From UHGV virus genome UHGV-0173177: DNA of 44,360 bases. One strand, 5' to 3'. Shown piece after piece: positions 3,219-5,352 of the stretch (position 1 is its first letter; every line of letters starts with the position of its first letter). The stretch is from a virus. The notes under the pieces were generated by a model that did no database searches, was not told where the DNA came from, and worked only from the letters and a program-made list of their open reading frames with translations. The position numbers and the translations under genes were made by a program.

Positions 3219-3395
3219 TCACTCACTTTTGAATGGCATTTCGTAGAAGTTAGTTAACTGCCCCCGGTCACTCCGTTCTGTCATTTCTTTCGAAGCCTCT
3301 TCCTTACTACCCACGGCGTAAATATCTACCCACTCGTCCCATTCTTTGTCGTATACGCGGATTACGTATATTGTTTTCATTACATTCTTACTCAT
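3219..3395 (-). CDS. small hypothetical protein (58 aa)
   Basis: Hand-translated - strand ORF MSKNVMKTIYVIRVYDKEWDEW...; below the 60-aa track cutoff; GGAG upstream; last gene of the - strand island. Confidence 0.3.
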   Translation of the reverse strand: MSKNVMKTIYVIRVYDKEWDEWVDIYAVGSKEEASKEMTERSDRGQLTNFYEMPFKSE

Positions 3396-3618
3396 CAATA
3401 TTACTCCTGTACTCCCGTAACTTCTCCAGACTTTCTATTGCTTCTGCTAAGTCGGTTCCTGTGTCTTTGTGTCCGCGAAGGCCCATACACAACAGCTTCT
3501 TCAATGCGTGCTGTAGCGCCGGGTCGCGTATATCGAAGGCGCGTAGCACATCATAAACGTCTACTGTCATAGTGCTGCCGTGAGTGTTTGTCATTGTGCG
3601 GTTGTATTTATTTGTCAC
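3388..3618 (-). CDS. hypothetical protein (76 aa)
   Basis: ORF in the - strand island; GTG start at 3618 with GAGAG upstream, or the internal ATG at 3594. Confidence 0.45.
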   Translation of the reverse strand: MTNKYNRTMTNTHGSTMTVDVYDVLRAFDIRDPALQHALKKLLCMGLRGHKDTGTDLAEAIESLEKLREYRSNIDE

Positions 3619-3625
3619 TGTTAAC

Positions 3626-3675
3626 TCTCTTAAATCTGGCTATGCCTGACTCTCTTAAATCTGGCTATGCCTGAC
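3626..3675. repeat. perfect 25-bp tandem direct duplication (2 copies) of TCTCTTAAATCTGGCTATGCCTGAC
   Basis: Read directly: 3626-3650 is identical to 3651-3675; overlaps the 3' end of the - strand ORF 3630-3833. Confidence 0.9.
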
Positions 3676-3833
3676 TCGTTAATGCTGCCTATTTCAAAGA
3701 AGCTGCGATATTTAGGCGAATACATTCTTACGTCGCCGTTCTCTAGGGTGACCCCTTCATATACAGCGCCTACTTCGAATCCATTTTTCTCCGCGTACGG
3801 ACTCACATCGGTGCATTCATACATATCTTTCAT
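3630..3833 (-). CDS. hypothetical protein (67 aa) whose C-terminus is altered by the 25-bp duplication
   Basis: ORF ends ...FKRVRHSQI*; with one repeat copy removed the frame would read ...FKRVNSDK*. Confidence 0.45.
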   Translation of the reverse strand: MKDMYECTDVSPYAEKNGFEVGAVYEGVTLENGDVRMYSPKYRSFFEIGSINESGIARFKRVRHSQI

Positions 3834-4960
3834 CCCAGCATCTCCGGTGAAATAGTTAAACGTGCGACCTCGCCATATTCGGCACTATAGGTAATTACAT
3901 TTGCGCTACGGCCTGACATCCATCCACCGCGCGAGGCGTAGGCGTCTTTAGCCGCCAGGGTGCGGTGTTGCTCAACAATCATGTTACGGCTTTCCACAAT
4001 CTTCTGATGGTGGAGGTGGCCTACGTGGGCGTAGCTGTAAACGCTTTCGCCAAATGCTTTGCGGAACTTGGCAATCATAACCGGTTCGATAGCGTCGAAT
4101 CGTGCCTTATGCCCGTGGTGAAAGAACAGCGTCGTTTTGCCGTGTTGCACCATCTTGTAAACATCTGGCGACGTATCGACGAACACACGAGGCTCATTGT
4201 CGTACAGCGTACTAAACATCTCAGCTAACCAAATCATTCCGCTTTCGTCGTGGTTTCCTTGCACGATAAGCAAGCGAACATTTTTATGCTTAACCAGCGC
4301 CATACCGACAACACGGCGGACCATACGAATCATGTAGCGGACAAGTTTCTGATAGCGAGTGTCCGCATCAAGGGCGTGACCGCTTGCAGGCGTAACGGCA
4401 ACCAGACTGTCGAAGTGCGCGAAGTCGCCCAGCAGGTTAATAACTCCAGTTCCTGCATCCGGCGCTTTCTGGAACGCCGCATCGAACCAGCGAGAAAACA
4501 GGTCTTCCGCAATCTTCATATCCCAGTCGTCGCCACTCTCGTCGGCCCAGGCCAGCATACCAAGATGGAAATCAGATACAGTGTAAAGATTGAGTAGTTT
4601 ATCGTCACGTTTGGTGCGAACGGCTTTAACTGGTACAACGGGAGTAATCTCCGACTTCATGCCTTCGATTACGGCTTTCATCAACTCGACCTGACGTTCA
4701 GCGTCAGTGTCTGTCTTAACCCATTGCAACTTAGTGTTGCCGAACTCGTCCACAAGCGACGACGTTCCTTTAATCTTGTAGCCGTCCGGGACAAGATGGC
4801 TAACGTCACGACCGTGACCTACGCCTTTCTTCGCCAGCTTCGCTTTACGGATACGAATAACGCGGTCTGAGATGCCGTATTTACGGGCGATGTCTACATT
4901 CTTCATCCCGGCGTTCAATTCTTCCTGTAACTGTTCGTCGGTTATTTTCTTCTGGGCCAT
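3830..4960 (-). CDS. metallophosphoesterase (calcineurin-like) with N-terminal helix-turn-helix domain
   Basis: 376 aa; N-terminus DIARKYGISDRVIRIRKAKL is HTH-like; ordered metallophosphatase motifs DFHLG, GDFAHFD, GNHD, HHGH, GHLHH. Confidence 0.6.
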   Translation of the reverse strand: MAQKKITDEQLQEELNAGMKNVDIARKYGISDRVIRIRKAKLAKKGVGHGRDVSHLVPDGYKIKGTSSLVDEFGNTKLQWVKTDTDAERQVELMKAVIEGMKSEITPVVPVKAVRTKRDDKLLNLYTVSDFHLGMLAWADESGDDWDMKIAEDLFSRWFDAAFQKAPDAGTGVINLLGDFAHFDSLVAVTPASGHALDADTRYQKLVRYMIRMVRRVVGMALVKHKNVRLLIVQGNHDESGMIWLAEMFSTLYDNEPRVFVDTSPDVYKMVQHGKTTLFFHHGHKARFDAIEPVMIAKFRKAFGESVYSYAHVGHLHHQKIVESRNMIVEQHRTLAAKDAYASRGGWMSGRSANVITYSAEYGEVARLTISPEMLG

Positions 4961-5025: not shown

Positions 5026-5352
5026 CTATTTACTTTCTGCGCCTATTGCCCATCCAGTCATTACCATTTGCAGACGGGTGGCTGTCAGTAGGCTGTAAAA
5101 CGCGTCTCCGTTTTTCTCTACCGAACGTATTACCGTGTATGTTACGGCTTGCGGAGGCAGGCCCGATTTACCAACCTCTACGGCGGACTCGCACTCGCGA
5201 ACTGTAGAGTCCTTAAATGCCTTTACAAGAGTAGGGTTGGCTTTCTCAAGCACACCAGAAGTCATAAGAACAGATTCACTAAATACCTGTTCGCACGGGG
5301 ACCCAAAAGTAGCAAAAGACATAAACCCCAGAGCTAGTACTAATTTACGCAT
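5026..5352 (-). CDS. small secreted/periplasmic protein (signal peptide)
   Basis: 108 aa; N-terminus MRKLVLALGFMSFATFGSPCEQ has n-, h- and c-regions of a Sec signal; first gene downstream of the - strand promoter at 5381-5409. Confidence 0.5.
   Translation of the reverse strand: MRKLVLALGFMSFATFGSPCEQVFSESVLMTSGVLEKANPTLVKAFKDSTVRECESAVEVGKSGLPPQAVTYTVIRSVEKNGDAFYSLLTATRLQMVMTGWAIGAESK

What the first reader, a model, noticed from the sequence alone, without database searches (positions are those of the whole stretch)
3626..3675. Perfect 25-bp tandem duplication that frameshifts the C-terminus of a small gene
TCTCTTAAATCTGGCTATGCCTGAC occurs twice in tandem. Because 25 is not a multiple of 3, the duplication changes the last residues of ORF 3630-3833 from a predicted …FKRVNSDK to …FKRVRHSQI and moves the stop 14 nt away from the original. 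It is either a very recent slipped-strand event, a population polymorphism or an assembly artefact.
Basis: seen in the sequence. Interest (0 to 1): 0.5.

Follow-up and report, generated by a model that had tools for sequence, protein, structure and literature searches.

The report
Recent 25-bp duplication in phage gene
One strain of a gut E. coli phage carries a real, very recent 25-base tandem duplication, flanked by a 4-base repeat as slippage copying errors typically are, which swaps the last four amino acids of a small optional protein for five others; it is an ordinary mutation, not a new element.

Summary
TCTCTTAAATCTGGCTATGCCTGAC occurs twice head to tail at 3626-3675. Perfect period-25 sequence runs 3624-3677 (54 nt = 2x25 plus a 4-nt ACTC/GAGT microhomology). 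It is the only perfect tandem duplication in the window. The window is a Kagunavirus-like E. coli siphophage. Every relative examined has one copy: 26 GenBank phage records, 7 IMG/VR or metagenome contigs, and 16 Logan/ENA contigs, some encoding the identical neighbouring exonuclease. The ancestral arrangement is GAGT-21 nt-GAGT, the expected substrate for slipped-strand duplication. It is not a one-assembly artefact. The exact 67-aa frameshifted protein is on 14 contigs. All 9 fetched loci (8 different assemblies: SPAdes-style NODE contigs, Logan contigs, one scaffold) are 99.97-100% identical to the window, carry two copies and hold the repeat internally. The small gene on the minus strand is real (pN/pS 0.06) but optional. 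NSDK becomes RHSQI and the stop moves 22 nt upstream (not 14). An 11-nt overlap with the next gene's GTG start becomes an 11-nt gap, while that gene's ribosome-binding region stays intact. Verdict: a recent, lineage-specific, microhomology-flanked tandem duplication that is probably near neutral. Interest is low.

The parts
3624..3677 (.). Full extent of perfect period-25 sequence (54 nt): two 25-nt units plus the 4-nt microhomology
   Evidence: TRF; own scan, (start 3624, 29 matching positions at lag 25)
3626..3650 (.). It carries the SD-like AAGAGAG (3625-3631, minus strand) of the next gene and the new stop codon.
3651..3675 (.). Copy 2 (distal on the minus strand). It encodes ...SGIARFKR in the original frame.
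3624..3627 (.). Microhomology ACTC (GAGT on the coding strand), repeated at 3649-3652 and 3674-3677. In single-copy relatives the two GAGT copies bracket 21 nt.
   Evidence: alignment with six relatives; chance estimate
3630..3833 (-). Small accessory gene, 67 aa here and 66 aa in relatives. Function unknown. The last 4 residues NSDK are replaced by RHSQI.
   Evidence: pN/pS 0.059; 21 of 27 variable sites at codon position 3
3630..3632 (-). New stop codon TAA created by the +1 frameshift. It overlaps the SD-like motif of the next gene and lies 11 nt upstream of its GTG.
3608..3610 (-). Position equivalent to the ancestral stop TAA (in GTGACAAATAA), now out of frame for the small gene
3388..3618 (-). 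Downstream 76-aa gene (matches the C-terminal part of phrog_2452; called DUF3310 in some records). Its GTG start at 3616-3618 overlapped the small gene by 11 nt in relatives and is now separated from it by 11 nt.
   Evidence: start position supported
3830..4960 (-). Upstream metallophosphoesterase / DNA-repair-exonuclease-like gene. Its stop overlaps the small gene's ATG (ATGA).

Best explanation
This is a genuine, evolutionarily very recent 25-nt tandem duplication that is private to one clonal lineage of a Kagunavirus-like E. coli phage. It was most likely made by misalignment between two GAGT tetranucleotides 25 nt apart: the nascent strand slipped back during replication, or an equivalent microhomology-primed resynthesis occurred, and 21+4 nt were copied twice. 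Because 25 = 3x8+1, the reading frame of the small minus-strand accessory gene shifts by +1 four codons before its end. NSDK* becomes RHSQI*, and the stop moves from 8 nt inside the next gene to 11 nt upstream of that gene's GTG. The copy next to the downstream gene reproduces the ancestral sequence exactly, so that gene's ribosome-binding region is unchanged for 44 nt (the 19 nt between the repeat and the GTG plus the proximal unit) upstream of its start. The expected phenotypic effect is small: a changed tail on a dispensable protein, and translational coupling kept but changed in geometry. The allele is probably neutral or nearly so and hitch-hiked in a strain seen in several gut metagenome runs. 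Shown: the duplication, its derived state, the microhomology, its reproducibility across assemblies, and the coding consequences. Inferred: the slippage mechanism, near-neutrality, and retention of coupling.
For: The repeat is perfect and unique in the window. The single-copy state is found in 6 aligned relatives, in all 26 matching INPHARED records (record span 65 nt vs a 90-nt query), in 5 IMG/VR and 2 metagenome contigs (all matches 39 nt long, which is one copy), and in the 16 Logan/ENA contigs outside the clone that carry the small ORF, some of them encoding the identical exonuclease at 97-98% nt identity. The ancestral sequence is AAC-GAGT-21 nt-GAGT-TAAC. Only 1.5% (breakpoint-weighted) or 0.4% (event-weighted) of random 25-nt duplications in this genome would have 4 nt or more of flanking microhomology. 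The exact 67-aa protein is on 14 contigs. The 9 fetched loci come from 8 assemblies: ERZ1307772 (fetched twice), ERZ1310596, ERZ1310501, ERZ1311714, ERZ28658432, and SRR5558393/97/98. All have two copies, are 99.97-100% identical to the window, and hold the repeat inside the contig. The small gene is under purifying selection (pN/pS 0.059). It is nevertheless dispensable: it is absent in L024 and L026, replaced by another ORF in L022, truncated by a nonsense codon in L031, and 57 aa long in P0007. The replaced residues lie in a low-confidence tail of a single-sequence model (residues 59-67 below pLDDT 50). Predicted accessibility of the downstream SD and start is unchanged (0.505 vs 0.498).
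Against: No reads were available, so the fraction of one-copy and two-copy molecules within a sample is unknown. The samples carrying the strain have adjacent accession numbers and probably come from one study, so the evidence is independent at the level of runs and assemblers, not necessarily of hosts (inference; I could not verify this). No near-identical (>99.9%) single-copy genome was found, so the immediate ancestor is inferred rather than observed. The tail NSDK is nearly invariant in relatives, which could mean it matters. However, that DNA is also constrained by the overlapping start of the next gene. The mechanism (replication slippage versus microhomology-mediated break repair) cannot be told apart from sequence.
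Confidence: 0.88

Rival explanations
1. Assembly or sequencing artefact: for example an untrimmed k-mer overlap of a circular contig that was later rotated, or a mis-resolved graph bubble, so that the real phage has one copy.
For: A 25-nt exact duplication is the kind of thing an untrimmed end overlap can create. Coverage of the ENA contigs is low (cov 1.7-3.8 in the contig names). The window has no terminal overlap and starts at a different place from its relatives, so it may have been rotated.
Against: The same junction lies well inside contigs of different lengths (1.1 to 44.5 kb) from 8 assemblies made by different assemblers from at least 3 runs. A single-copy template contains no repeated k-mer longer than 4 nt here, so a de Bruijn assembler could not generate the junction without reads that contain it (inference). 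Random-breakpoint artefacts would show 4 nt or more of microhomology only 0.4-1.5% of the time.
Confidence: 0.03
2. The duplication is real but was produced by repair of a double-strand break (for example one made by a homing endonuclease) through microhomology-primed synthesis, not by replication slippage.
For: The neighbourhood is a hot spot for HNH endonuclease genes in close relatives (L024, L025, L028). Microhomology at the junction fits this route too.
Against: No endonuclease gene is called in the loci of this strain that span the region (L014, L021). Nothing distinguishes this from slippage. The unit contains a small hairpin (GGC-ATA-GCC; DNA fold z = -4.8 on the + strand) of the kind classically invoked to stabilise slipped intermediates (own knowledge).
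Confidence: 0.06
3. The duplication is adaptive, or a reversible switch. It changes the protein tail and the translational coupling to the 76-aa gene. Copy-number changes (2 to 1 to 0) toggle between separate and fused products.
For: Tandem duplications revert easily (own knowledge). The reciprocal deletion between the GAGT repeats would fuse the small ORF in frame to the 76-aa gene, giving a 131-aa product. The stop/start geometry does change.
Against: All 9 fetched loci of the clone have exactly two copies, and all other relatives exactly one. No zero-copy or three-copy allele was seen. Three copies would give the same protein as two. Predicted start-site accessibility is unchanged. The gene is optional.
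Confidence: 0.03
4. The two copies are a functional repeat element (protein-binding iteron or operator, or regulatory RNA repeat) rather than a mutation.
For: Perfect direct repeats near a gene start can be binding sites. The unit contains a short palindrome.
Against: Every relative has one copy at the orthologous site. The sequence is coding and evolves like coding sequence. The 25-mer occurs nowhere else in the genome even with 3 mismatches. There is no Rfam hit.
Confidence: 0.01

Closest known systems
Slipped-strand mispairing / short-homology-mediated tandem duplication (Streisinger-type misalignment; the class reviewed by Lovett, 'Encoded errors', 2004; cited from own knowledge)
   Same: Head-to-tail duplication with no filler. 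The unit is bounded in the ancestor by a short direct repeat (GAGT, 25 nt apart), one copy of which ends up shared at the junction. The copies are identical. The length is not a multiple of 3, so it causes a frameshift. A small hairpin lies within the unit.
   Different: Nothing differs at the sequence level. The mechanism itself (replication-dependent slippage) is inferred, not demonstrated.
Overlapping stop/start translational coupling in phage operons (termination-reinitiation; own knowledge)
   Same: In relatives the small gene's TAA lies 8 nt inside the next gene (GTGACAAATAA, 11-nt overlap). The whole exonuclease / small ORF / 76-aa / 58-aa string has overlapping junctions.
   Different: In this strain that one junction has become an 11-nt spacer, with the stop sitting on the SD-like AAGAGAG. 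Whether coupling efficiency changes was not measured.
Phase-variable simple-sequence contingency loci
   Same: A tandem repeat whose copy number sets the reading frame of a gene's end.
   Different: There are only two copies of a long (25-nt) unit. No copy-number variation was seen among clonal contigs. Relatives have a single copy. Adding a third copy has no further effect on the protein.

Membership tests
Microhomology-flanked tandem duplication (slipped-strand mispairing product) | Two identical units head to tail with no intervening bases | tested here: met
Microhomology-flanked tandem duplication (slipped-strand mispairing product) | Derived state: orthologous site is single-copy in relatives | tested here: met
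   every sequence outside the clonal lineage has one copy
Microhomology-flanked tandem duplication (slipped-strand mispairing product) | Short direct repeat bracketing the unit in the ancestral sequence | tested here: met
   GAGT-21 nt-GAGT in all relatives; 4 nt or more expected for only 0.4-1.5% of random 25-nt duplications
Microhomology-flanked tandem duplication (slipped-strand mispairing product) | Arises by polymerase/nascent-strand slippage during replication | not testable with these tools
   Needs genetics or mutation-accumulation experiments
Assembly artefact (untrimmed overlap / graph error) | Confined to one assembly, or located at a contig end or rotation joint | tested here: not met
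   Two copies lie inside contigs of 8 assemblies from different assemblers
Assembly artefact (untrimmed overlap / graph error) | Raw reads do not span the junction | not testable with these tools
   No read access
Functional repeat element (iteron/operator) | Repeat arrangement conserved in related genomes | tested here: not met
Phase-variable contingency repeat | Copy number varies among otherwise near-identical genomes and toggles the product | tested here: not met
   All 9 fetched clonal loci have exactly 2 copies; 3 copies would give the same protein. Within-sample heterogeneity was not testable.
Transposon target-site duplication or excision footprint | Duplication flanks (or once flanked) an inserted element; typical length 2-14 bp | tested here: not met
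   No sequence lies between the copies and the unit is 25 nt. No relative has an insertion at this site.

The most novel reading that the evidence does not exclude
The two-copy allele is kept by selection because it re-tunes expression of the downstream 76-aa DUF3310-like gene, or gives the small protein a new functional tail. Slippage between the GAGT repeats would then act as a reversible 2/1/0-copy switch, whose zero-copy state fuses the two proteins in frame.
Probability: 0.03. Interest if true: 0.35.

Novelty: already known. Interest (0 to 1): 0.1.

Why it matters
It matters little beyond bookkeeping. It is a clean natural example of a microhomology-flanked tandem duplication caught while still perfect. 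It also serves as a strain marker for one gut E. coli phage lineage. It shows that the C-terminus of this small accessory protein, and its overlap with the next gene, tolerate change. For annotation, the 67-aa product should be recognised as a frameshifted allele of the common 66-aa protein, not as a new protein.

Tried and rejected
(1) I searched for the two-copy junction elsewhere. There was no exact match in IMG/VR. A gapped pattern that accepts one or two copies found only one-copy matches in IMG/VR and JGI metagenomes and nothing in GTDB genomes. I worked around this with the window's own neighbouring proteins. (3) I tried to link SRR5558393/97/98 and SAMN06233224 to a study. PRJNA361402 is the Wu et al. 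metformin cohort, but none of the run numbers appeared in the texts or supplements searched, so a shared origin remains an inference from accession adjacency and the 'WUHA17' label. (4) Function of the small protein: no Pfam or PHROG hit. The single-sequence AF2 model is moderate (pLDDT 70). Foldseek against BFVD and PDB found only its own ortholog. (5) TRF's third degenerate copy was rejected as weak (13/25). (6) An effect on mRNA structure around the next gene's start was rejected, because accessibility is unchanged. (7) An ORF fusion caused by the duplication was rejected: the frames still differ and a TAG at 3640-3642 blocks the downstream frame (reading). (8) There are no tRNA genes or Rfam families in the window.

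Full report
OBSERVATION. The sequence at 3626-3675 is as described: TCTCTTAAATCTGGCTATGCCTGAC twice in tandem with no mismatch. No copy is expected in dinucleotide-preserving shuffles, even with 3 mismatches allowed. Tandem Repeats Finder gives period 25, 2.2 copies and 100% matches over 3624-3677. A scan of my own shows this is the only perfect tandem duplication with a unit of 8 nt or more in the whole 44,360-nt window. The perfect periodicity is 54 nt rather than 50 because the unit is bracketed by the tetranucleotide ACTC (GAGT on the coding, minus strand) at 3624-3627, 3649-3652 and 3674-3677. TRF's suggested third, degenerate copy reaching 3692 is weak, at 13 of 25 matches at offset 24, and I do not count it.

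CONTEXT. The window is a Kagunavirus-like (Guernseyvirinae) E. coli siphophage. The best genome-wide relatives are about 90-93% identical. The repeat lies in a string of minus-strand genes between the tail tube gene and the tail assembly chaperone genes:
- A 376-aa metallophosphoesterase / 'DNA repair exonuclease' (3830-4960; phrog_704, weak Pfam Metallophos).
- A small ORF (3630-3833, 67 aa; no Pfam or PHROG hit).
- A 76-aa ORF (3388-3618, GTG start). It matches positions 150-220 of the 235-position phrog_2452 and is labelled DUF3310 in some records.
- A 58/59-aa ORF (3219-3398).
The junctions overlap (ATGA at 3830-3833; 11 nt at 3388-3398), which is the usual layout of a translationally coupled phage operon.

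THE TWO-COPY STATE IS DERIVED AND PRIVATE TO ONE CLONE. An alignment with six GenBank relatives shows a clean 25-nt gap in all of them. The ancestral sequence on the coding strand is ...ATTAAC GAGT CAGGCATAGCC(A/C)GATTTAAGA GAGT TAACAGTGACAAATAA. All 26 INPHARED records that match a 90-nt query across the repeat cover it with a 65-nt stretch, which is one copy. A gapped pattern able to match one or two copies found 5 IMG/VR and 2 metagenome contigs, each with a 39-nt (one-copy) match, and nothing in GTDB genomes. The junction-specific 20-mer has no match in IMG/VR. I then used exact look-ups of the window's own exonuclease and 76-aa proteins to pull in the closest strains. Contigs that encode the identical exonuclease protein and are 97-99% identical in nucleotides across that gene either have one copy or lack the small ORF altogether.

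NOT AN ASSEMBLY ARTEFACT. The exact 67-aa frameshifted protein is in the public protein collection on 10-14 contigs. The nine loci I could read are L014-L021 and L040. They come from eight assemblies, because L014 and L021 are two fetches of the same ERZ1307772 contig: ERZ1307772, ERZ1310596, ERZ1310501, ERZ1311714, ERZ28658432, SRR5558393, SRR5558397 and SRR5558398. All contain two copies and the junction. They are 99.97-100% identical to the window over 1.1-6.2 kb. They hold the repeat well inside contigs of 1.1 to 44.5 kb. The contigs come from different assembly pipelines: SPAdes-style NODE contigs, Logan contigs and a 'scaffold' set. A single-copy template has no repeated word longer than 4 nt here, so an assembler could not create the junction without reads that contain it (inference). 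The accession numbers are adjacent, and one contig is labelled WUHA17. PRJNA361402 is the Wu et al. 2017 metformin gut cohort. I could not tie the runs to that project, so I treat 'one study, several runs' as likely but unverified.

MECHANISM. The ancestral GAGT...GAGT pair, 25 nt apart, is exactly the substrate expected for slipped-strand duplication. The nascent strand ending in GAGT re-pairs with the upstream GAGT, and 25 nt are copied again. In this genome only 1.5% of all possible 25-nt duplications (0.4% when equivalent breakpoints are merged) would be flanked by 4 nt or more of homology by chance. That is roughly a 60- to 250-fold preference for a homology-guided event over a random-breakpoint one. 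The unit also contains a small hairpin (GGC-ATA-GCC with flanking pairs; folded as DNA, z = -4.8 on the + strand and -2.4 on the - strand), which could stabilise a looped-out nascent strand. That role is inference. A break-repair route using the same microhomology cannot be excluded; homing-endonuclease genes sit nearby in some relatives.

CONSEQUENCES. 25 = 24 + 1, so the small gene is shifted by +1 after ...ARFKRV. NSDK-stop becomes RHSQI-stop, and 66 aa becomes 67 aa. The new TAA is at 3630-3632. In relatives the small gene overlaps the next gene's start by 11 nt (GTGACAAATAA; annotated coordinates). In this strain there is an 11-nt spacer instead, and the stop codon sits on the SD-like AAGAGAG (3625-3631) of the next gene. 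The GTG at 3618 is supported as the true start. In relatives that lack the small ORF, an ATG at the homologous position is fused to the exonuclease stop. The copy proximal to the downstream gene restores the ancestral sequence, so that gene's initiation region is unchanged for 44 nt upstream of the GTG. The predicted unpaired probability of SD-to-start is the same with one or two copies (0.498 vs 0.505). Termination 11 nt upstream, rather than 8 nt downstream, of a start codon is still within the range where reinitiation works (established knowledge; not measured here).

IS THE AFFECTED GENE REAL AND DOES THE TAIL MATTER? Across 15 distinct single-copy alleles, pN/pS is 0.059 and 21 of 27 variable sites are at codon position 3, so it is a real protein-coding gene. 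It is also an optional cassette. L024 and L026 lack it, and L022 has an unrelated 77-aa hydrophobic ORF in the same slot. L031 has a GAG-to-TAG nonsense codon that leaves 52 aa. A 57-aa truncated form (P0007) is on two contigs. The tail RFKRVNSDK is nearly invariant in relatives, but that DNA also encodes the SD and start of the next gene, so the conservation is ambiguous. A single-sequence AlphaFold model has moderate confidence (mean pLDDT 70). It shows a small beta-sheet core (residues 3-51) and puts residues 59-67 below pLDDT 50. Fold searches found only the protein's own ortholog. Together these results suggest a small effect, probably near neutral.

ALTERNATIVES. The artefact reading, the functional-repeat (iteron or operator) reading and the target-site-duplication reading each fail a defining test (see the membership table). 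A switch-like reading is not excluded but has no support. Every contig of the clone has two copies, and every other relative has one. A third copy would not change the protein. The zero-copy reciprocal, which would fuse the small ORF in frame to the 76-aa gene as a 131-aa product, was not seen anywhere.

VERDICT. This is a recent, lineage-specific, microhomology-flanked tandem duplication that alters the last residues of a small accessory protein. It is real rather than an assembly artefact. It is a textbook class of mutation with modest consequences, so interest is low.

Noticed in passing
window 3619-3833 (slot between the exonuclease and the 76-aa gene); L022 2028-2261, L024/L026 about 2028-2040: The small ORF is an optional cassette. 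Close relatives with the identical exonuclease have the 66-aa ORF, an unrelated 77-aa hydrophobic ORF (L022), or nothing. In the last case the exonuclease stop (ATGA) is fused to an ATG start of the 76-aa gene at the position homologous to the window's GTG 3618.
   Followed up: partly
L031 (SRR22560170) 311-469; protein P0007: There are independent natural truncations of the same small protein: a GAG-to-TAG nonsense codon at codon 53 (52 aa) in L031, and a 57-aa form ending ...ESGIA on two contigs. Its DNA could not be fetched; a CGA-to-TGA change is my guess.
   Followed up: partly
L024 2300-2788, L025 2441-2931, L028 2660-2931, L034 847-1231: HNH_3 endonuclease-like genes, and in one case an ANT/pRha gene, are inserted just downstream of the 76-aa/58-aa genes in some close relatives. 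The region between the tail tube and exonuclease genes is an insertion hot spot.
   Followed up: no
window 3388-3618 (-): The 76-aa protein matches only positions 150-220 of the 235-position phrog_2452, and likewise the C-terminal parts of five other PHROGs. In other phages this domain is therefore the C-terminal part of a roughly three-fold longer protein.
   Followed up: no
window 3624-3677: In silico, the reciprocal slippage product (deletion of the unit from a single-copy genome) would put the small ORF in frame with the 76-aa gene and give a 131-aa fusion. No such allele was seen.
   Followed up: yes
window 5026-5352 (-): The window and its clone have a 108-aa ORF upstream of the exonuclease, where many close relatives have a 63-aa Imm_superinfect (PF14373) gene. 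This is another cassette swap.
   Followed up: no
GenBank OR594180.1 (L002): Escherichia phage vB_EcoM_SHAK7693 is filed under Autographiviridae / Kayfunavirus and named 'EcoM'. It is about 93% identical to this Kagunavirus-like siphophage over 25 kb, so the taxonomy line looks wrong.
   Followed up: no
window 1-44360: There are no tRNA genes and no Rfam family at gathering threshold anywhere in the window. There is no terminal direct overlap of 8 nt or more at the window ends.
   Followed up: yes
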